Of a stretch of 27,716 nt of DNA, positions 1 to 7,874 are shown one piece after another (positions within the stretch are counted from its first letter, which is position 1; each line of letters begins with the position of its first letter). The translations under genes and the position numbers were made by a program. The notes beneath the pieces are model-generated. The model searched no databases, was not told the origin of the DNA, and was given only the letters and a program-made list of their open reading frames with translations. The stretch comes from a virus (taxonomy: Duplodnaviria > Heunggongvirae > Uroviricota > Caudoviricetes), in IMG/VR virus record IMGVR_UViG_2534681772_000017; one strand, given 5' to 3'.

Positions 1-17
1 AACACGAGCAAACAGAC

Positions 18-46
18 AAAAAAAGGGCCAGCCAATTGGCCAGCCC
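18..46 (-). terminator. Putative rho-independent terminator downstream of int
   Basis: Read on the minus strand, GGGCUGGCC-AAUU-GGCUGGCCC forms a 9-bp stem (two G-U pairs) followed by a run of U (plus-strand A-run 18-24). Could equally terminate a host gene at the prophage junction. Confidence 0.5.
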
Positions 47-172
47 TTCTTAACAGGATGTCGCTTAAGCGAAATCTTAGTTAAGACGCTCCTATTAACA
101 CCACCCAACAAACAAACACTTACCATATAAAACAATTAGTTAATGTAATTTTTAATGCAGCGAATTGCAGTG

Positions 173-1222
173 TTATGCAAGCTCTGCCGCCACATTGTCG
201 CCAACATATAGCGACAACGGATTAAGGGTAACAGCTTGCTCAAGATGGTCAGGCGCAAAGTGTGCATACTTCATTGTTTCTCGAATGTTGGCATGTCCGA
301 GTATTTTCTGCAGCACCAGTATATTTCCGCCGTTCATCATAAAATGCGCACCAAAGGTATGACGCAAAACATGAGTCTTCTGCCCTTCCGTCAGCTCAAT
401 GTTCGTAAGCTTGAGCATCTTCTTAAAGTCTTGATAGCAGGGTTTGAACATTCTCCCCTGACGTTCAGACAACTCGTCGTAGAGCCATTTAGGAATCGGA
501 ACCGTGCGATTCTTCTTACCTTTGGTTTTGGTGAAAGTCAGCTTGCATGGGGAAAGTTGGGGACGTGTAAGTCTCTCGGCTTCTCCCCATCGTGCGCCGG
601 TAGCCAAGCAAACCTTAACAATCATCGTAAGATTTTCTTTGCCATATTGTTCACAGGCTCGGAACAGCTCCGGGAGCTGAGACAAAGTTAGCCAGGACAT
701 TTCTTTCTCAGCTTCTTTGAATACGCGAATCCCGTCCAGTGGATTGGGTAAACTCCACTCCCCTAATCGTCGCAGTTCATTGAACACCGCTTCGAGGTAT
801 TGCTGCTCGCGATTGACAGTTATAGGTTTGGCGATCCACTTCGCCGGGTCTTTGTGATAGCCGTTGTCTATTTCGCCACGTAATCGACGGTCACGGTAAT
901 GAGCCCAATCTTTAGCGGTAAGACGAGATGCAATAGGGTCGCCCAACCCATTACATACAATTTGAAGCTTAGCTAACCGCGACTTACTGGCGACCAGCGC
1001 CTGTCCATGTAAATTATGCCAAAGCTGGATAATCTCACTTAAGCGTCGGCGGTCTTCTTTCTTACCGAGCCACGGCTTATCCTCACTCTCATTTTTCGTG
1101 AATGCCTCGAATGCCTCGGCCTCGCCTTTGGTGTTAAACTGTCGACGTATACGCCGCCCCTCCCGGCCATTTGGATAAAGCTCACAGAGCCATTTGCCAT
1201 TTTTCTGCTTACTAACAGTCAT
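173..1222 (-). CDS. int: Tyrosine site-specific integrase, P2/186 type
   Basis: 349-aa ORF with the C-terminal catalytic region of tyrosine recombinases (HVLRHTFGAH ... LGHANIRETMKYAH). Sits at the prophage edge, as in P2/186. SD GGGGTGA upstream of the ATG. Confidence 0.93.
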   Translation of the reverse strand: MTVSKQKNGKWLCELYPNGREGRRIRRQFNTKGEAEAFEAFTKNESEDKPWLGKKEDRRRLSEIIQLWHNLHGQALVASKSRLAKLQIVCNGLGDPIASRLTAKDWAHYRDRRLRGEIDNGYHKDPAKWIAKPITVNREQQYLEAVFNELRRLGEWSLPNPLDGIRVFKEAEKEMSWLTLSQLPELFRACEQYGKENLTMIVKVCLATGARWGEAERLTRPQLSPCKLTFTKTKGKKNRTVPIPKWLYDELSERQGRMFKPCYQDFKKMLKLTNIELTEGQKTHVLRHTFGAHFMMNGGNILVLQKILGHANIRETMKYAHFAPDHLEQAVTLNPLSLYVGDNVAAELA

Positions 1223-1251
1223 TACATCACCCCGACCGAGAAGCCATTTTC

Positions 1252-1656
1252 TTACTGCAAATCTTTCATTGTAGTAACATGCGTGTTCGACAAAATTGTG
1301 ATTTTAGACTGTTCTTCTTGTTCTTCTCCGGCCTTATCACAAGTTGCTTTTGGCTTCTCAAGCACATAACCCATAGCACTAAATTTATTGAGAATTCGAA
1401 CAGATGTAGTGTTTTTCAGATACGCAGTGTTTTCCTTATGTAGCCATGCAGGGGAACAAACGCTATAAACTGCGGTATCATAAATTTCAGGCGTAATACT
1501 TGCGGCATCCAAAACAACTGTAATCACGCCATTACTATCTTTTATCGACAGTGGTTGCATTTCGTTAAAGGATTTCTTCAGTACAGATAAGTTAGAGGGT
1601 TGAGCTGCTACTGTAAAAGAAGCGAGTAAAGCCAGAGCAAAAATAGAACGTTTCAT
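1252..1656 (-). CDS. Small secreted/periplasmic protein of unknown function (candidate lysogeny-expressed moron)
   Basis: Start refined to the internal Met (MKRSIFALALLASFTVAAQ...), which carries a classic Sec signal peptide and an AAGGA SD. The 134-aa product lies between cI and int on the same strand. Locally AT-rich compared with the rest of the prophage. No family recognised. Confidence 0.6.
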   Translation of the reverse strand: MKRSIFALALLASFTVAAQPSNLSVLKKSFNEMQPLSIKDSNGVITVVLDAASITPEIYDTAVYSVCSPAWLHKENTAYLKNTTSVRILNKFSAMGYVLEKPKATCDKAGEEQEEQSKITILSNTHVTTMKDLQ

Positions 1657-1669
1657 TATCGCATCATCC

Positions 1670-2512
1670 TTAGATATGTTTTTCCAGAGTAAATACAACA
1701 GCACCAGATGGTGTGATTTCTGATAGGTTGCATTCAAAATCAACAGACTTATTTGATAGCCTGACTTTATTACCCGGCAGTCGCACAACGTCGAAAACGT
1801 CGAACGCGCCATCTATCCCGATGAGCCAACGGCCATTGCCGATTTTGCATGCTGAATTATCGACAAGCCAAGATGAGCTAACGCCATCTACAAAAACCAA
1901 ATCATCAGAGTTAGCAGGAATCATTGATGGGTCAGGTTGCCAACGCCCAGCGTCTTTTAGCTCACCAGATTCAAGGCGGGATTTTTTTATCGTTAAAATG
2001 TCCGAAAAGCTAGCCTCCTTACTTTCTCGCATTTTCCCCTTTCCGGTCGCTAACCATTCCAGCGATACACCAGTATCAAGCGCGCATGTCACAACCACAT
2101 CACCGGGGAAGAAATCTCGTCTTACCCAGGTGCTGATAGTGCCTGAGGAGATATCCAACAAATCCCCAAGCTCCTTTTGCATTGTAAAACCATAGGCGTC
2201 AAGGATGCGCCTTAAAACAGGTTTTCCACCACTCGCCAAAATCTCGTCATAAAGTGCTTTTCCTTTCAACGGTGACGAATCTTGCAAATTCAAATTGGAA
2301 ATTTGACCAGTCAGCAGCCAGTTTAAATCAGCACCAGTATCTAATGAGCACTGAATGATGGCTTTGCCTGGAAAACTGTTTCGCTGAACCCAAGTGCTGA
2401 CGCTGTTTGACGGGACGCCAAGCACTTCCGCCAAAGCCTTTTGCGTGCTGACACCATACGCCGAACTTATCCGCTCAATCACATCTTGCGTATTCAAATC
2501 TTCATCATTCAT
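1670..2512 (-). CDS. cI: 186-type CI immunity repressor with tandemly duplicated N-terminal HTH domain
   Basis: 280 aa. Two consecutive copies of a Phage_CI_repr-like motif (ISSAYGVSTQKALAEVLGV...STWVQRNSFPG...CSLDTGADLNWLLTG and ILDAYGFTMQKELGDLLDI...STWVRRDFFPG...CALDTGVSLEWLATG), then a roughly 115-aa C-terminal domain. Divergent from the lytic operon, the usual immunity-region layout. Confidence 0.82.
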   Translation of the reverse strand: MNDEDLNTQDVIERISSAYGVSTQKALAEVLGVPSNSVSTWVQRNSFPGKAIIQCSLDTGADLNWLLTGQISNLNLQDSSPLKGKALYDEILASGGKPVLRRILDAYGFTMQKELGDLLDISSGTISTWVRRDFFPGDVVVTCALDTGVSLEWLATGKGKMRESKEASFSDILTIKKSRLESGELKDAGRWQPDPSMIPANSDDLVFVDGVSSSWLVDNSACKIGNGRWLIGIDGAFDVFDVVRLPGNKVRLSNKSVDFECNLSEITPSGAVVFTLEKHI

Positions 2513-2625
2513 TTATCAATCACTCAAAATCGATTTACAGGAACTCATTTTCGATTTAAAGTGGCATTCATCGACCAAGATGCACACCACTGCACTACAT
2601 TTCAAACAACAGGAGATAATGCGAT
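2513..2625. promoter_or_regulatory. Divergent immunity-region promoter/operator (pR/pL-like switch)
   Basis: 113-bp AT-rich gap between the divergent cI and apl-like genes. Contains the 10-bp palindrome AAATCGATTT (2527-2536), a second TCGATTT element 21 bp downstream (2551-2557) and a third TCGA core at 2571-2574. Confidence 0.6.
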
Positions 2626-2997
2626 ATGTCAGATGCAAAATCAATCTCGACGCACGACTCGCAAAACTCACAAAATCAAACTGTGCTGTTAGATCCAACG
2701 CAGTTTGATGCCATCGTTACCGCCATGCTTCCAGCTCTGCAGACAATGATTCGCTCCGCAATGTCCGACACCATGACAGTGAAAGACTTCGCCGCTACTC
2801 GCGGTGTTAGCGAGCGTCTGGTCTGGCAATGGCTCGATGAGGGCATCCTTCTCAAAGCTCCGACCAAAGACTTTTCCAACAAAGAGGAAGCCGCTAAACG
2901 AAGCCGAACCCTCGTAAACGTAAAAGCATGGCGCGATAAGCTGACTCAACAAGCGATTGATTGTCGCTACATCGACCAGCGCACCGCTCTTAACTGA
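2626..2997 (+). CDS. Apl/Cox-like small DNA-binding protein (lytic-switch regulator / excisionase-like)
   Basis: First gene of the rightward operon, divergent from cI. AGGAGA SD 9 nt upstream. Contains a probable HTH segment (TVKDFAATRGVSERLVWQWLDEGIL). Function assigned by position and motif, not strong identity. Confidence 0.5.
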   Translation: MSDAKSISTHDSQNSQNQTVLLDPTQFDAIVTAMLPALQTMIRSAMSDTMTVKDFAATRGVSERLVWQWLDEGILLKAPTKDFSNKEEAAKRSRTLVNVKAWRDKLTQQAIDCRYIDQRTALN

Positions 2998-3029
2998 ATT
3001 TGATTATGCAAGTTAGAGGGAATTTAACC

Positions 3030-3539
3030 ATGTTTGATTTTCAGGTTTCCAAACATCCCCACTATGACGATGCATGCCGCATTTTCGCGCAGCGTCACAA
3101 CATGGCGAAGCTGGCCGAGCGTGCGGGTATGAACGTTCAAACGTTACGTAACAAGCTCAACCCGGAACAGCCTCACCAGTTTACGCCGCCTGAATTGTGG
3201 CTACTGACTGACCTGACCGAAGACTCAACCCTCGTTGATGGTTTTTTGGCGCAGATTCATTGCCTGCCATGCGTGCCGGTTAATGAGCTGGCTAAAGACA
3301 AATTGCAGTCTTATGTCATGCGAGCAATGCGTGAACTCGGCGAGCTGGCGAGCGGTGCGGTATCTGATGAACGTCTGACCTCTGCCCGTAAGCACAACAT
3401 GATTGAAAGCGTTAATTCTGGCATTCGCATGTTGTCGTTGTCGGCGCTGGCGCTGCATGCGCGTCTGCAGACTAATCCCGCTATGTCGAGCGTCGTCGAT
3501 ACCATGAGCGGTATTGGCGCATCCTTCGGGCTGATTTGA
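3030..3539 (+). CDS. cII: Phage regulatory protein CII (186 CII / CP76 family)
   Basis: Start set at MFDFQVSKHPHYDD (SD GAGGGA 8 nt upstream), which closely resembles the 186 CII N-terminus as I recall it. Occupies the expected position after apl. Confidence 0.8.
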   Translation: MFDFQVSKHPHYDDACRIFAQRHNMAKLAERAGMNVQTLRNKLNPEQPHQFTPPELWLLTDLTEDSTLVDGFLAQIHCLPCVPVNELAKDKLQSYVMRAMRELGELASGAVSDERLTSARKHNMIESVNSGIRMLSLSALALHARLQTNPAMSSVVDTMSGIGASFGLI

Positions 3540-5116: not shown

Positions 5117-7341
5117 GCGTTAACTTTGCTTACCCGTGGAATGCCCCACGGTCGGCAATAGCCAGCCCATACCTTACATATGACCAACAGCATCGCCGCG
5201 ACCGTATGTTCGCGGCTTTGCTGCATGCGAGAAAAGTGCTTTCTCTCCAGCCCGAGTGCGTGCGCTTTGACGTTTATCGCACCGCTGCGGTGCTGGAGCA
5301 AAATCAGGGCAGTCAACGAGCCAATGCCTTTTTAATCAGCTTCTGCAAAAAGGCATTGCCACGTCTTGAACTGGTCGCAAAAAAATACGAGTGCGCGGGT
5401 ATCAACAGCAATGTATCAGCCGCTGTTTTCGATGGTCATTTTGATACCGAGCTTATGCAATATCTGGCGTCACGCATGGTTAATATGGTCGCCAGATATA
5501 ACCGCCTCCCTGACATGTCGCGCGCCGATATTGACCTGCTGGGCGCTGATATTGCTAATTTCATTCGCGCTGAACTGGCAGAGCATGACGACGCTGATTC
5601 TGATTTTGGTGAGCTGGCGACGCTGCATGGTTGGTATATGCGAGCAGGGTTAATTACGCTGCAGTTTGGCATTACTCCTCCGCATTGGGCGGGAACAACC
5701 ACAAAATACTTTGACCCGGATAAAGTTGCCCCGGCTATCGCTCGTATGTTTAACGATGTGTGGTGGCGTGGTCGCCTGCGTCGCATTGCGGCTGCATGGC
5801 GCGAACACCTGCAAATCGCAGTCGGAAATGTCAGCAAAAAACGACACGCATACGCGAGTAAAAACTGCGTGACCGACTGGCGTGAGCAAAAGCGCCGCAC
5901 GCGCGAGTTTCTCAAGGGGCTGGATCTCGAAGACGAAGACGGCAACCGCATCAGCCTGATTGAAAAATACGACGGTTCGGTCGCTAACCCTGCGATACGC
6001 CGCTGCGAGCTGATGACCCGCATCCGTGGGTTTGAAAACATCTGCAATGAGCTCGGTTATGTCGGTGAGTTTTACACCCTGACAGCACCGTCTAAATATC
6101 ACGCCACCACCAAAGCAGGCTACCGTAACAGTAAATGGAACGGAGCCAGCCCGTCGGACACGCAGAGTTATCTAACCGGCCTTTGGGCGCGCATTCGTGC
6201 CAAGTTGCACCGGGAAGAAATCCGCATTTTCGGCATACGTGTTGCCGAGCCTCATCACGACGGGACGCCTCACTGGCATATGCTTATGTTCATGCTGCCG
6301 GAAGACGTCGAGCGTGTGCGCCTCATCATTCGCGATTATGCGTGGGAGGAAGACCATCACGAACTGAGAAGCGATAAAGCCAAAAAGGCACGCTTTCACG
6401 CCGAGGCCATTGACCCGGAAAAAGGCAGCGCTACCGGCTATGTCGCTAAATACATTTCAAAAAATATCGACGGCTATGCTCTCGATGGTGAGACCGATGA
6501 CGAAAGCGGCGAACTACTGAAAGAGACAGCACCCGCCGTTTCAGCATGGGCGGCGCGCTGGCATATCCGTCAGTTTCAGTTTATCGGCGGTGCGCCGGTG
6601 ACGGTCTACCGTGAGTTGCGTCGTCTCGCCGATACCGAGACCGCGCACGGTCTGAGCGTTGAATTTGCCGCTGTCCATGATGCCGCTGACGCCGGTGACT
6701 GGGCTGGTTACGTTAATGCGCAGGGTGGGCCGTTTGTCCGTCGCGATGATTTGCAGGTGCGCACACTGTATGAACCGCGCGCTGATTTTAATCAGTATGG
6801 CGAGGAAACCGTCTGTATCCGTGGTGTTTACGACTCTGTTGTCGGCGCTGGTACCCCTATTTTAACCCGGTTAACGCAGTGGAAAATTGTGCCTAAGCGT
6901 GCCGTTGATTTGGCCGTTGACGTTAAGGGCGCTCCTGCGCCCTCTCGGAGTTCTGTCAATAACTGTACGGGAAGCGAAAGCGATCCACCGATACTGGATT
7001 TAACAAAACCGCTGAGTCGGCGTGAAAGACGAGAGCTGACGAACCGACTAAGGAAGCAAAAGCCAGCAATACGGCGAAAATTCATCCACGGAACGGATGA
7101 GCAAAACGCAGCTATAGCGAAAACTATCGACGAGATACATCTGACAACCGGCATTAATATCAGTCGGGGTGAAGCCCTGCACCTGATGGCCGGTGGTAAA
7201 AGTTGTTTTGATGGCAAATGGCTACGCGGAACGGCCAAAGGAGAAATATTTTCCGCTGCGCCATCGCATGAGGCTAAAGCTCGGAAAATCCTTAATCGTG
7301 TTGCGGCGATGGCTGAAGCATCAAAACCAATACATGATTAA
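5107..7341 (+). CDS. A: Replication initiation endonuclease, P2 gpA type (rolling-circle initiator)
   Basis: 744 aa. N-terminal YPWNAPR (P2 A has YAWNAPRE), HUH motif GTPHWHMLMF and the catalytic tyrosine motif GYVAKYISKNIDGYALDG. SD GGGGGA 4 nt before the ATG. Confidence 0.95.
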   Translation: MRVSVNFAYPWNAPRSAIASPYLTYDQQHRRDRMFAALLHARKVLSLQPECVRFDVYRTAAVLEQNQGSQRANAFLISFCKKALPRLELVAKKYECAGINSNVSAAVFDGHFDTELMQYLASRMVNMVARYNRLPDMSRADIDLLGADIANFIRAELAEHDDADSDFGELATLHGWYMRAGLITLQFGITPPHWAGTTTKYFDPDKVAPAIARMFNDVWWRGRLRRIAAAWREHLQIAVGNVSKKRHAYASKNCVTDWREQKRRTREFLKGLDLEDEDGNRISLIEKYDGSVANPAIRRCELMTRIRGFENICNELGYVGEFYTLTAPSKYHATTKAGYRNSKWNGASPSDTQSYLTGLWARIRAKLHREEIRIFGIRVAEPHHDGTPHWHMLMFMLPEDVERVRLIIRDYAWEEDHHELRSDKAKKARFHAEAIDPEKGSATGYVAKYISKNIDGYALDGETDDESGELLKETAPAVSAWAARWHIRQFQFIGGAPVTVYRELRRLADTETAHGLSVEFAAVHDAADAGDWAGYVNAQGGPFVRRDDLQVRTLYEPRADFNQYGEETVCIRGVYDSVVGAGTPILTRLTQWKIVPKRAVDLAVDVKGAPAPSRSSVNNCTGSESDPPILDLTKPLSRRERRELTNRLRKQKPAIRRKFIHGTDEQNAAIAKTIDEIHLTTGINISRGEALHLMAGGKSCFDGKWLRGTAKGEIFSAAPSHEAKARKILNRVAAMAEASKPIHD

Positions 7342-7401
7342 TTCATATCCATATCATGCACATACGGCAATCGCCCTATTCGTTTTTTTTCTTCCCATCT
7401 T

Positions 7402-7435
7402 TTGCCAATACGTGCTACTGTATAAATATACAGTA
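7402..7435 (+). promoter_or_regulatory. SOS-regulated promoter with LexA box
   Basis: TACTGTATAAATATACAGTA at 7416-7435 is a perfect CTGT-N8-ACAG LexA operator. It overlaps an AT-rich -10 region and lies downstream of a -35-like TTGCCA (7402-7407). Directly upstream of the 7455 ORF. Confidence 0.85.
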
Positions 7436-7454
7436 ACCCTATGGGAGGGATTTC

Positions 7455-7637
7455 ATGGTTGGCGAACATTTCAGCCGAACGCAGCAAAAGTGGGCTTGTG
7501 TGCAATTTATTGCCGAGGTATCTCTGATTGCAAACTGCAAGCCATCAGACTTAAAGCTCGCGCTCACTCTCATTGCAGACCTAGCAAACAGCGAAAATAA
7601 CGAAACCGAAGATGATATTTTTTATAAGGCTGATTAG
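7455..7637 (+). CDS. Small SOS-induced ORF, possible N-terminal part of a Tum-like antirepressor
   Basis: 60-aa ORF with SD GGGAGGGA 5 nt upstream, immediately downstream of the LexA box. Ends at a TAG that is in frame with the DinI-like ORF that follows. Confidence 0.45.
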   Translation: MVGEHFSRTQQKWACVQFIAEVSLIANCKPSDLKLALTLIADLANSENNETEDDIFYKAD

Positions 7638-7640
7638 ATT

Positions 7641-7874
7641 ATGAGAATCAATATCACGTTGGATAAAGAGCAAAAAATTAGTCAGGCAACGTTGGATGCG
7701 CTTGAGGCTGAGCTGTACCGCAATCTGCAACCTATTTACCCAAAGACCGCTATCCGCATTCGCAAGGGCTCCGCAAATGGCGTTGAGCTAAGCGGTTTGA
7801 AACTGGACGAAGATAAAAAACGAGTAATGGAAATCATGCAGCAGGTATGGGAGGACGATAGCTGGTTGCATTAA
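7641..7874 (+). CDS. DinI-family protein (DinI/Tum C-terminal domain-like)
   Basis: 77 aa (MRINITLDKEQKIS...LDALEAELYRNLQPIYP...EIMQQVWEDDSWLH) with the DinI-like pattern of an N-terminal MRIE/N beta strand and an acidic, Trp-containing C-terminal helix. In the same reading frame as the 7455 ORF. Confidence 0.8.
   Translation: MRINITLDKEQKISQATLDALEAELYRNLQPIYPKTAIRIRKGSANGVELSGLKLDEDKKRVMEIMQQVWEDDSWLH

What the first reader, a model, noticed from the sequence alone, without database searches (positions are those of the whole stretch)
1252..1656. AT-rich signal-peptide gene between int and cI: candidate lysogeny-expressed moron
A 134-aa ORF with a clear Sec signal peptide and a good RBS sits between the CI repressor and the integrase, on the same strand, so it would ride the lysogenic transcript. 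The stretch is visibly AT-rich relative to the prophage, which suggests separate acquisition. No P2 or 186 core gene with this character is known to me at this spot, and I recognise no family. Periplasmic prophage proteins in this position typically act in superinfection exclusion or lysogenic conversion. This is the best candidate in the window for an undescribed accessory function.
Basis: partly seen in the sequence, partly recalled or inferred. Interest (0 to 1): 0.65.

Follow-up and report, generated by a model that had tools for sequence, protein, structure and literature searches.

The report
Periplasmic cargo gene between cI and int
A small, horizontally acquired prophage gene for an exported, uncharacterised protein sits in a swappable slot of the operon that maintains lysogeny, where a cholera phage keeps a protein that blocks superinfecting phages; its own function is untested.

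Summary
Window 1252-1656 (-) is a 134-aa ORF with a Sec-type signal peptide. It lies 13 nt after the repressor gene and 29 nt before the integrase gene, with no terminator between them. It is the most AT-rich stretch of the window (GC 0.38 vs 0.55).

The prophage is PSP3-like (186-type immunity) and sits next to yfiB. The protein belongs to phrog_3807 (unknown function). It has no Pfam, NCBIfam or PADLOC match and no significant solved-structure match, despite a confident AF2 model (pLDDT 89.5). Two cysteines are invariant and the gene is under purifying selection.

It is variable cargo. It occurs in 1 of 5426 complete E. coli genomes. In phage 186, cI and int overlap. In PSP3 and most relatives the slot holds an unrelated periplasmic DUF2511 (YebY-like) protein, and one Escherichia prophage carries both in tandem. 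Of 59 surveyed 186-type loci, 34 have an empty slot and 19 carry diverse cargo, mostly envelope proteins. Elsewhere the family sits beside ogr or D, always in P2-like phages.

The closest functional precedent is Vibrio phage K139 Glo. Glo is a non-homologous soluble periplasmic protein in the same operon position and is annotated as involved in phage exclusion. The function of this protein remains inferred. I rate it a new variant of a known kind, of moderate interest.

The parts
1252..1656 (-). orfX: 134-aa precursor of a roughly 116-aa (12.8 kDa, pI 6.1) soluble periplasmic protein, a member of phrog_3807
   Evidence: ORF and translation. phrog_3807 match E 1.1e-48 over residues 1-131. Homologues at 68-99% identity in Klebsiella, Enterobacter, Cronobacter, Citrobacter, Cedecea and Brenneria. 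AF2 model pLDDT 89.5, pTM 0.80. Purifying selection.
1603..1656 (-). Signal-peptide coding part (residues 1-18, MKRSIFALALLASFTVAA, predicted cleavage before Q19)
   Evidence: Heuristic n/h/c analysis, with no lipobox. A18 is nearly invariant and Q19 conserved in alignments A1 and A5. Low pLDDT for residues 1-20.
1657..1672 (-). Upstream cassette junction: cI stop codon TAA overlapping the AAGGA Shine-Dalgarno sequence of orfX
   Evidence: Sequence. The motif TAAGG is invariant in all five aligned phages whichever cassette follows, and similarity to the DUF2511-carrying relatives stops here. Related forms (TAAGGGAA, TTTAGGGA) occur in L024, L027, L035 and L038.
1223..1251 (-). Downstream cassette junction with the int ribosome-binding region (GGCTTCTCGGTCGGGGTGATGTA before the int ATG)
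   Evidence: Similarity to relatives resumes at a GCCTCGGTG-type motif.
1670..2512 (-). cI immunity repressor, first gene of the lysogenic operon (280 aa, two HTH stretches plus the CI C-terminal domain)
   Evidence: Pfam PF07022 E 4.5e-54 (2 stretches) and PF16452 E 1.6e-18. RefSeq annotates 'phage repressor protein CI' in the 99.5%-identical E. coli E21 locus.
173..1222 (-). Tyrosine integrase, last gene of the operon
   Evidence: Pfam Int_N E 6.7e-31 and Phage_integrase E 2.8e-19. Annotation in E21.
20..51 (-). Strong GC-rich hairpin followed by a T-run just downstream of int. It is the likely end of the cI-orfX-int transcript and lies in host DNA next to yfiB.
   Evidence: Terminator-like site, 14 pairs with 7 GC. 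Host junction with yfiB.
2534..2562 (+). Sigma-70-like promoter (TTTACA-17-TAAAGT) facing the lytic apl/cox-like gene (2626-2997 +). It marks the switch region upstream of cI.
   Evidence: Promoter scan. The neighbouring genes are cox-like, cII and fil.

Best explanation
orfX is a horizontally acquired, promoterless cargo cassette in the cI-int slot of a PSP3-like (186-type) P2-family prophage.

Shown or strongly supported:
- It is transcribed as part of the lysogenic operon (cI, orfX, int) and translated from a Shine-Dalgarno sequence that overlaps the cI stop codon.
- Its product is exported by Sec, its signal peptide is cleaved after Ala18, and it folds in the periplasm into a compact alpha/beta domain of about 116 residues.

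Inferred:
- The domain is stabilised by a C67-C106 disulfide.
- Like Glo, the non-homologous soluble periplasmic protein that phage K139 encodes at the same operon position, it acts in the lysogen's periplasm by binding. It would block superinfecting phages, most plausibly other P2-like contractile-tail phages, at a step after adsorption such as periplasmic transit or DNA delivery.

My confidence that it is lysogeny-operon periplasmic cargo is about 0.85. My confidence in the exclusion mechanism itself is about 0.4.
For: Operon context. The spacers are 13 nt and 29 nt, nothing in or between the spacers looks like a terminator or promoter, and there is a terminator after int. The curated phage 186 record shows pL and pE transcribing cI-int-orf69 as one 'lysogenic operon'. 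The K139 record shows PL-cI-orf2-glo-int.

Cassette nature. DNA similarity to the DUF2511-carrying relatives breaks exactly at the cI stop/SD and resumes at the int RBS. The tandem cI-orfX-DUF2511-int arrangements in L024 and L107 have composite junctions. GC is 0.38 against 0.55. The gene is in 1/5426 E. coli genomes.

Export. Signal-peptide features occur in 53/54 and 75/80 relatives, a lipobox in 0/54 and 2/80, and exactly two mature cysteines in 49/54 and 72/80. C67 and C106 are invariant.

Real folded protein. pLDDT is 89.5, and pN is far below pS.

Slot content. 19 of 59 186-type loci carry cargo. By my count, most of these encode a signal-peptide, lipoprotein or transmembrane protein: DUF2511, orfX, TM-WYL, DUF7424 lipoproteins and a GDSL lipoprotein.

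Precedent. K139 Glo is 137 aa, has a signal peptide and two cysteines, lies immediately upstream of int, and is annotated 'periplasmic protein; involved in phage exclusion'. PMC3952083 describes it as a soluble periplasmic sie protein. PMC9122126 reports a cI-int hotspot with defence systems in K139-like prophages.

Phage association. In 80 IMG/VR contigs the family always lies in P2-like phages next to int, att, ogr or D.
Against: - There are no functional data for any family member, and no paper mentions the family.
- It has no sequence similarity to Glo (BLASTP E 0.66; hhalign aligns only the signal peptide). The analogy rests on position and physical character only.
- There is no PADLOC hit.
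- The neighbouring cassette type, DUF2511/YebY, is linked in the literature to copper handling and lantibiotic binding, not to phage (PMC8689200).
- Distant family members also occur outside recognisable P2-like phages: marine islands beside a DUF4236 gene, and an alpha-proteobacterial element.
- Co-transcription and signal-peptide cleavage are predicted, not measured.
Confidence: 0.4

Rival explanations
1. Periplasmic immunity or decoy protein against an envelope-acting toxin, not against phage. The toxin could be a bacteriocin, a microcin or lantibiotic-like peptide, a T6SS or CDI effector, or a lysozyme. The protein would bind and neutralise it in the periplasm and so give the lysogen a competitive advantage.
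For: It shares the slot, sometimes in tandem, with DUF2511 proteins. [quoted passage not shown] Small size, Sec export and a conserved cysteine pair are typical of periplasmic immunity proteins (general knowledge). Distant members occur in non-phage variable islands.
Against: No cognate toxin gene lies next to it in any context examined. There is no fold match to known immunity proteins or lysozyme inhibitors. It has no homology to DUF2511 (hhalign probability 3%). The family is tightly associated with P2-like phages.
Confidence: 0.2
2. Lysogenic-conversion or host-fitness factor unrelated to defence. Examples would be periplasmic metal handling, envelope-stress tolerance, or colonisation and virulence. 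In this reading it is kept because it benefits the host, not because it excludes competitors.
For: It would be expressed from the prophage maintenance operon. The DUF2511 homologue YebY is implicated in copper delivery (PMC8689200). There are weak, non-significant profile matches to heavy-metal-associated domains (ATP7B E 0.77-0.88, ZntA E 0.15-1.5). Hosts are mostly opportunistic Enterobacterales.
Against: The HMA matches are not significant and the CxxC metal site is absent. The two invariant cysteines are 39 residues apart and lie in two different helices. There is no link to any metabolic or virulence locus. Other cargo in the slot, such as WYL-domain membrane proteins, points to conflict systems.
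Confidence: 0.2
3. A phage life-cycle function: an accessory to integration or excision, to the lysis-lysogeny decision, or to lysis or virion release.
For: The gene lies between two core lysogeny genes and always near int, att or ogr.
Against: Phage 186, 34/59 related loci and nearly all E. coli relatives lack it. Unrelated proteins can replace it. A periplasmic location is incompatible with DNA transactions.
Confidence: 0.05
4. A spurious or decaying ORF with no function.
For: The ORF is AT-rich and short, and no family annotation exists.
Against: About 200 clusters of homologues exist at 50% identity. Invariant residues include a cysteine pair. pN is 0.13-0.19 against saturated pS of about 0.7. 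The AF2 model is confident. The RBS and signal peptide are intact across the family.
Confidence: 0.02

Closest known systems
Glo of Vibrio cholerae phage K139 (Peduoviridae, Longwoodvirus)
   Same: It lies in the lysogenic operon between cI and int, immediately upstream of int (PL-cI-orf2-glo-int). It is of similar size (137 aa against 134 aa), has an N-terminal signal peptide and no lipid anchor, and has two cysteines in the mature part. The host phage is P2-related. Glo is annotated and cited as a soluble periplasmic protein involved in phage exclusion (PMC3952083).
   Different: There is no detectable sequence homology (BLASTP E 0.66; hhalign aligns only the signal peptide). Glo's cysteines are near its two termini, while orfX's are at positions 67 and 106. 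Glo's phenotype was measured; orfX's was not. The folds could not be compared.
PSP3 orf28 / DUF2511 (PF10709; E. coli YebY, Microbispora MlbQ)
   Same: It occupies exactly the same slot with the same flanking junction motifs. It is a Sec-exported small protein with a conserved cysteine pair, and YebY has a proven periplasmic location and disulfide (PMC8689200). It is also AT-rich (GC 0.395 in L024).
P2-family diversity hotspots (old/tin and Z/fun loci of P2; the cI-int hotspot of K139-like Vibrio prophages)
   Same: It is a small locus between two conserved phage genes with high cargo turnover (PMC9122126; bioRxiv 10.1101/2024.10.15.618418). My survey shows the same behaviour at cI-int in enterobacterial 186-type prophages.
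   Different: Cargo here is usually a single promoterless gene embedded in the operon and mostly encodes envelope-targeted proteins. The multi-gene cytoplasmic defence systems (RM, Septu, PARIS) reported for the Vibrio hotspot were not seen.
Envelope-located superinfection-exclusion proteins of other phages (T4 Sp and Imm, HK97 gp15, P22 SieA, T5 Llp, phi80/N15 Cor, TP-J34 Ltp)
   Same: These are phage-encoded, act outside the cytoplasm, and are expressed in the protected cell. Several sit in lysogeny modules (PMC3952083; the rest is general knowledge).
   Different: Most are membrane-anchored or lipoproteins, whereas orfX has neither a transmembrane anchor nor a lipobox. There is no sequence or fold similarity to them.

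Membership tests
PHROG phrog_3807 (unknown function) | Significant full-length match to the family profile | tested here: met
   E 1.1e-48, 165.8 bits, residues 1-131 on profile positions 4-135 of 135. tblastn finds members in Serratia KSP20, Salmonella FSL SP-004, Yersinia P37 and Klebsiella ST147-VIM1phi7.1.
DUF2511 / YebY / MlbQ (Pfam PF10709) | Match to PF10709 at or above the gathering score | tested here: not met
   No PF10709 hit even at E <= 1, and none in 80 family members. PSP3 orf28 and the L024 neighbour do hit it (E 6e-17 and 1e-18).
DUF2511 / YebY / MlbQ (Pfam PF10709) | Profile-profile or fold similarity to the family | tested here: not met
K139 Glo-type periplasmic exclusion protein | Sequence homology to Glo | tested here: not met
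   BLASTP E 0.66. hhalign aligns only the signal peptide, probability 21%.
K139 Glo-type periplasmic exclusion protein | Encoded in the lysogenic operon between cI and int of a P2-related phage | tested here: met
   Window order is cI(1670-2512)-orfX-int(173-1222) on one strand. K139 order is cI-orf2-glo-int.
K139 Glo-type periplasmic exclusion protein | Soluble periplasmic location (cleavable signal peptide, no anchor) | tested here: inconclusive
   Heuristic signal-peptide features and the absence of a lipobox or second hydrophobic segment support it. No SignalP run and no experiment.
K139 Glo-type periplasmic exclusion protein | Confers exclusion of superinfecting phage | not testable with these tools
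   Requires plating and DNA-entry assays.
Moron (Hendrix-type autonomous insert) | Inserted between two genes that are adjacent in related phages | tested here: met
   cI and int overlap in phage 186. They abut within 25 nt in 34/59 related loci.
Moron (Hendrix-type autonomous insert) | Nucleotide composition distinct from the surrounding phage genome | tested here: met
   GC 0.383 and GC3 0.311 against a window GC of 0.549; 0.3rd percentile.
Moron (Hendrix-type autonomous insert) | Own promoter and terminator | tested here: not met
   No promoter-like or terminator-like site flanks the ORF. The cassette boundaries are the cI stop/SD and the int RBS.
Outer-membrane or lipoprotein exclusion factors (Cor, Llp, Ltp type) | Lipobox with Cys at +1 of the mature protein | tested here: not met
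   No lipobox in the window protein or in any of the 54 close relatives (0/54); 2/80 in the wider set.
DUF4431 (label carried by a Dickeya homologue in UniRef) | Pfam match to DUF4431 | tested here: not met
   The UniRef name was seen. No Pfam family at E <= 0.01 in any of 80 members, including that Dickeya protein, P0091.

The most novel reading that the evidence does not exclude
orfX founds an uncharacterised family of soluble periplasmic anti-phage effectors with no relative among solved structures. The family would be specific to P2-like phages and would block contractile-tail DNA delivery in the periplasm. On this reading, the cI-int junction of enterobacterial 186-type prophages is a previously unrecognised hotspot specialised for single-gene, promoterless, envelope-acting exclusion cassettes that swap or stack via conserved junction motifs (TAAGGGAA... 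/ ...GCCTCGGT).
Probability: 0.3. Interest if true: 0.6.

Novelty: new variant of a known kind. Interest (0 to 1): 0.45.

Why it matters
Few soluble periplasmic proteins are known to interfere with phage entry. K139 Glo and T4 Sp are the classic cases, and a 2026 paper (PMC13128918) still presents periplasmic blocking of phage DNA entry as new. If orfX excludes phage, it would add a third unrelated protein type to a slot that already holds Glo and DUF2511 proteins. That would give a simple rule for finding envelope-level defences: look for single exported proteins embedded in cI-int operons of P2-family prophages.

It could also help explain why DUF2511/YebY homologues sit in prophages. In practice, such genes affect the host range of therapeutic and typing phages in Klebsiella, Enterobacter, Cronobacter and E. 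coli lysogens.

If the gene has no phenotype, the finding is still a tidy example of cassette exchange in a phage operon, but an ordinary one.

Tried and rejected
2. Homology to K139 Glo. Rejected by sequence. The folds could not be compared, because Glo is not an allowed input for structure prediction.
3. Any annotated family. Pfam, NCBIfam and PADLOC gave nothing for the protein. Pfam gave nothing for 80 relatives. The 'DUF4431' label in UniRef was not reproduced.
4. A solved-structure relative by sequence profile. Only non-significant HMA-domain matches appeared (E 0.15-1.5). They are rejected as evidence for metal binding because there is no CxxC motif.
6. Domain fusions as functional clues. 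C-terminal copies of the domain are fused to pentapeptide repeats, SH3_3 or Excalibur in a few metagenomic proteins. These are heterogeneous and uninformative.
7. Conserved non-phage neighbours. Marine islands place the gene after a DUF4236 gene, near an AAA_13 ATPase and a reverse transcriptase. This is suggestive of a variable or defence island, but it is a single lineage.
8. An internal promoter or terminator for independent expression. None was found. In the ogr-adjacent clade the gene is bracketed by terminators, but no consensus promoter was detected.
9. A known ncRNA in the region. No Rfam hit in 1-3200.
10. Literature on the family, on PSP3 orf28 function, or on accession numbers. Nothing was found. 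Nesper et al. 1999, the primary paper on Glo, is not held. Glo's phenotype therefore rests on the GenBank annotation and on secondary citation.

Full report
**1. Observation**

The minus strand of window 1252-1656 carries an ATG-to-TAA ORF of 134 codons. The mechanical ORF list shows a longer 186-aa frame. The MKRS start is the biologically sensible one:
- It is preceded by AAGGA, 10 nt upstream, overlapping the TAA stop of the upstream gene.
- It is the start used in RefSeq for the 100%-identical gene of E. coli E21 (WP_000830450.1).
- It is the conserved N-terminus of all homologues.

The upstream gene (1670-2512, -) is a 186-type CI repressor. The downstream gene (173-1222, -) is a tyrosine integrase. 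The spacers are 13 nt and 29 nt. A pattern scan finds no terminator-like or promoter-like site in the spacers or inside orfX. It does find a strong hairpin with a T-run right after int, at 51..20.

The gene has GC 0.383 and GC3 0.311, against 0.549 for the window. That is the 0.3rd percentile of all 405-bp windows, and the lowest-GC stretch of the whole window overlaps it.

**2. The element and the protein**

The window starts at the end of host yfiB. It is a PSP3-like Eganvirus prophage with cI, a PSP3-type cox/apl analogue, cII, fil, replication gene A, portal and so on.

The protein matches only PHROG phrog_3807, which has unknown function (E 1e-48). It has no Pfam, NCBIfam or PADLOC match.

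The precursor has a classical Sec signal peptide: MKR, then a 13-residue hydrophobic core, then VAA|Q. There is no lipobox and no further hydrophobic segment. The same features recur in 53/54 close and 75/80 distant relatives.

The mature protein is about 116 residues, 12.8 kDa, pI 6.1. It has exactly two cysteines. C67 and C106 are invariant across 54 sequences, along with P35, W71, N90, G96 and P102.

Among copies from Klebsiella, Citrobacter, Escherichia and Brenneria, nonsynonymous differences are 0.13-0.19 per site while synonymous sites are saturated at about 0.7. This shows strong purifying selection.

An AlphaFold2 model built on a 54-sequence alignment is confident (pLDDT 89.5, pTM 0.80). 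Its secondary-structure order is alpha-beta-beta-alpha-beta-beta-alpha-alpha-beta. C67 and C106 lie on two different helices.

The model has no significant solved relative:
- Foldseek against the PDB gives nothing at E <= 1e-3.
- BFVD returns only family members.
- Sequence profiles against the PDB give only non-significant HMA-domain matches.

An exhaustive HMMER search finds about 200 clusters at 50% identity. None of 80 sampled members has a Pfam domain.

**3. It is variable cargo in a defined slot**

The gene occurs in 1 of 5426 complete E. coli genomes.

In the same place, PSP3, SEN1, SW9, SI22, Midge, RCIP0057 and most related E. coli prophages carry a 112-aa DUF2511 protein, PSP3 orf28 (PF10709 confirmed). 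A DNA alignment shows that similarity between the two versions runs through the end of cI, breaks at the shared TAAGG (cI stop plus SD), and resumes at the int ribosome-binding region. The two proteins are unrelated: hhalign gives probability 3%, with only the signal peptides aligned.

In phage 186 itself, cI and int overlap and nothing lies between them. Its curated record defines the pL/pE-driven 'lysogenic operon' as cI-int-orf69-terminator.

I used the integrase to fetch 80 loci, one per bacterial species, and classified what lies between a 186-type cI and int. Of the 80 loci, 59 have such a cI.
- In 34 of these, cI abuts int within 25 nt.
- In 6 there is a short, ORF-free gap.
- In 19 the slot is occupied.

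The occupants, with some loci holding more than one, are:
- DUF2511, 4 loci.
- The orfX family, 3 loci.
- Membrane-anchored WYL-domain proteins, 3 loci.
- DUF7424 lipoproteins, 2 loci.
- A GDSL-hydrolase lipoprotein.
- Several other signal-peptide or transmembrane proteins.
- Two larger proteins.

By my count, most occupied loci encode an envelope-targeted protein.

One Escherichia prophage (L024) and one IMG/VR contig (L107) carry cI-orfX-DUF2511-int in tandem. The junction between the two cassettes is TAGCCTCGGT followed by AAGGGAATTTATG. That is the motif that normally precedes int, joined to the motif that normally follows cI. The cassettes are therefore independent, stackable units with conserved ends, not alleles.

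**4. Where else the family lives**

Close relatives (57-100% identity) sit in the same cI-int slot of PSP3-like prophages in Klebsiella, Citrobacter and others.

More distant relatives (30-47% identity) sit at two other positions in P2-type phages: between int/attP and ogr, and between ogr and D. In 80 IMG/VR contigs the arrangements were:
- cI-X-int: 15.
- X next to ogr: 52.
- ogr-X-D: 8.
- X-D: 5.

All are P2-family phages, and the gene is always near the att/int/ogr corner.

Very distant members occur in two further settings. One is an alpha-proteobacterial integrative element, again between an S24 CI-like repressor and an integrase on the same strand. The other is a set of marine variable islands, where the gene follows a DUF4236 gene near an AAA_13 ATPase and a reverse transcriptase.

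**5. Mechanism**

Shown or strongly supported:
- The gene is real, conserved and horizontally acquired.
- It lies inside the cI-int transcription unit without signals of its own.
- Its product has all the sequence features of a Sec-exported, non-lipidated protein.

Inferred: co-transcription in lysogens (by analogy with the curated 186 and K139 operons), cleavage after A18, and a C67-C106 disulfide.

The closest precedent for function is K139 Glo:
- The K139 operon order is PL-cI-orf2-glo-int.
- Glo is 137 aa, with a signal peptide and two cysteines.
- It is annotated 'periplasmic protein; involved in phage exclusion'.
- It is cited as the exceptional soluble periplasmic sie protein (PMC3952083).

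Rousset et al. also reported a cI-int hotspot with defence systems in K139-like Vibrio prophages (PMC9122126).

I therefore commit to a Glo-like model. orfX would be a periplasmic binding protein that protects the lysogen from superinfecting phages at a post-adsorption, pre-cytoplasmic step. The targets would most plausibly be other P2-like phages, given the family's confinement to that phage group. My confidence in this mechanism is about 0.4.

The rivals are:
- A periplasmic immunity or decoy protein against envelope-acting toxins (0.2). This is prompted by the DUF2511/MlbQ neighbour; PMC8689200.
- A non-defence host-fitness factor (0.2).
- A phage life-cycle function (0.05).
- A spurious ORF (0.02).

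**6. Comparison with what is known, and novelty**

The kind of thing is known: accessory cargo in a lysogeny operon, and an exported prophage protein. So is the slot, through PSP3 orf28, K139 glo and the Vibrio cI-int hotspot.

Three things are not described, as far as I could find:
- This protein family, and its lack of any detectable relative among solved structures.
- The evidence that the enterobacterial 186-type cI-int junction is a cargo hotspot dominated by single promoterless genes for envelope proteins.
- The tandem, stackable cassette architecture with conserved junction motifs.

orfX fails the membership tests for DUF2511 and for Glo homology. It meets only the positional and physical criteria of a Glo-like protein. 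It also fails one criterion of a classical moron, which is having its own promoter and terminator.

I rate it a new variant of a known kind, with moderate interest (0.45). The context is well defined and the question is testable, but no functional evidence exists yet.

**7. Limits**

- No SignalP run was possible, and I had no access to model coordinates.
- The AFDB libraries were unavailable.
- Glo could not be modelled, and its primary paper is not held.
- The survey used one genome per species, simple ORF and HMM rules, and a heuristic for envelope targeting.

Noticed in passing
window 1670-2512 (-): The CI repressor is 280 aa and has two separate Phage_CI_repr HTH stretches plus the CI C-terminal domain. 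The 186 CI gene is 579 nt, about 192 aa. This looks like a duplicated DNA-binding domain, shared with PSP3-type repressors (281-287 aa in relatives).
   Followed up: no
window 7641-7874 (+); low-GC stretch 7275-7679: A 77-aa DinI-family ORF (PF06183, E 7e-24) lies in the short gap between replication gene A and the portal gene. That gap corresponds to the classical P2 old/tin hotspot. The adjacent stretch has the second-lowest GC in the window (0.40). From memory, the 186 antirepressor Tum is DinI-like, so this may be a Tum analogue.
   Followed up: partly
L024 2198-3001 (Escherichia sp. E1V33); IMG/VR L107: Here the arrangement is cI-orfX-DUF2511-int in tandem. The inter-cassette junction TAGCCTCGGT|AAGGGAATTTATG joins the motif that normally precedes int to the motif that normally follows cI. 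This suggests cassettes are gained or lost by recombination at short conserved junction sequences.
   Followed up: partly
L028 2419-2979, L030 2374-2973, L033 2375-2980: In Citrobacter and Pectobacterium prophages the cI-int slot holds proteins of about 190-200 aa with N-terminal transmembrane helices and a C-terminal WYL domain (Pfam E 2.5e-6 and 5.5e-5; weak PADLOC WYL and DRT-associated hits). Membrane-anchored WYL proteins in a lysogeny operon may be a defence sensor.
   Followed up: partly
L031 2302-3000, L032 2315-2989, L093 2254-2979: Other occupants of the slot are DUF7424 lipoproteins (Atlantibacter, Phytobacter) and a GDSL/SGNH-hydrolase lipoprotein (Shewanella). The latter is a plausible surface-glycan-modifying conversion gene.
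   Followed up: partly
L022 3695-8690 (Cohaesibacter sp.): A distant orfX homologue (P0253) lies in an alpha-proteobacterial integrative element, downstream of an HTH_3 plus Peptidase_S24 repressor and on the same strand as the integrase. So an unrelated type of element carries the gene in the same kind of lysogeny-module position.
   Followed up: no
L017-L021 (marine metagenomes, related to Halomonas proteins): Distant homologues directly follow a 414-aa DUF4236 gene in a variable island that also holds an AAA_13 ATPase and, in one contig, a 1326-aa reverse-transcriptase protein. This may be a two-gene unit in a defence-island-like context.
   Followed up: no
window 2626-2997 (+): The first lytic-operon gene is a 123-aa protein of phrog_3554 (unknown function) with only weak Cox-like similarity (phrog_575, E 1e-4). 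It corresponds to the PSP3-type Cox/Apl analogue that PMC3448106 calls a singleton with no detectable relatives.
   Followed up: no
window 1654-1667 (-): A four-codon mini-ORF, ATG ATG CGA TAA, lies between the SD and the orfX start. Its stop overlaps the orfX ATG (TAATG). It is probably chance, but it could affect translational coupling with cI.
   Followed up: no
P0113, P0133, P0167 (metagenomic proteins): A few proteins carry the orfX-type domain fused to other modules. It is at the C-terminus after pentapeptide repeats (P0113) or an SH3_3 domain (P0167), and at the N-terminus before an Excalibur calcium-binding domain (P0133). The domain therefore also works as a module in larger, probably exported, proteins.
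   Followed up: partly
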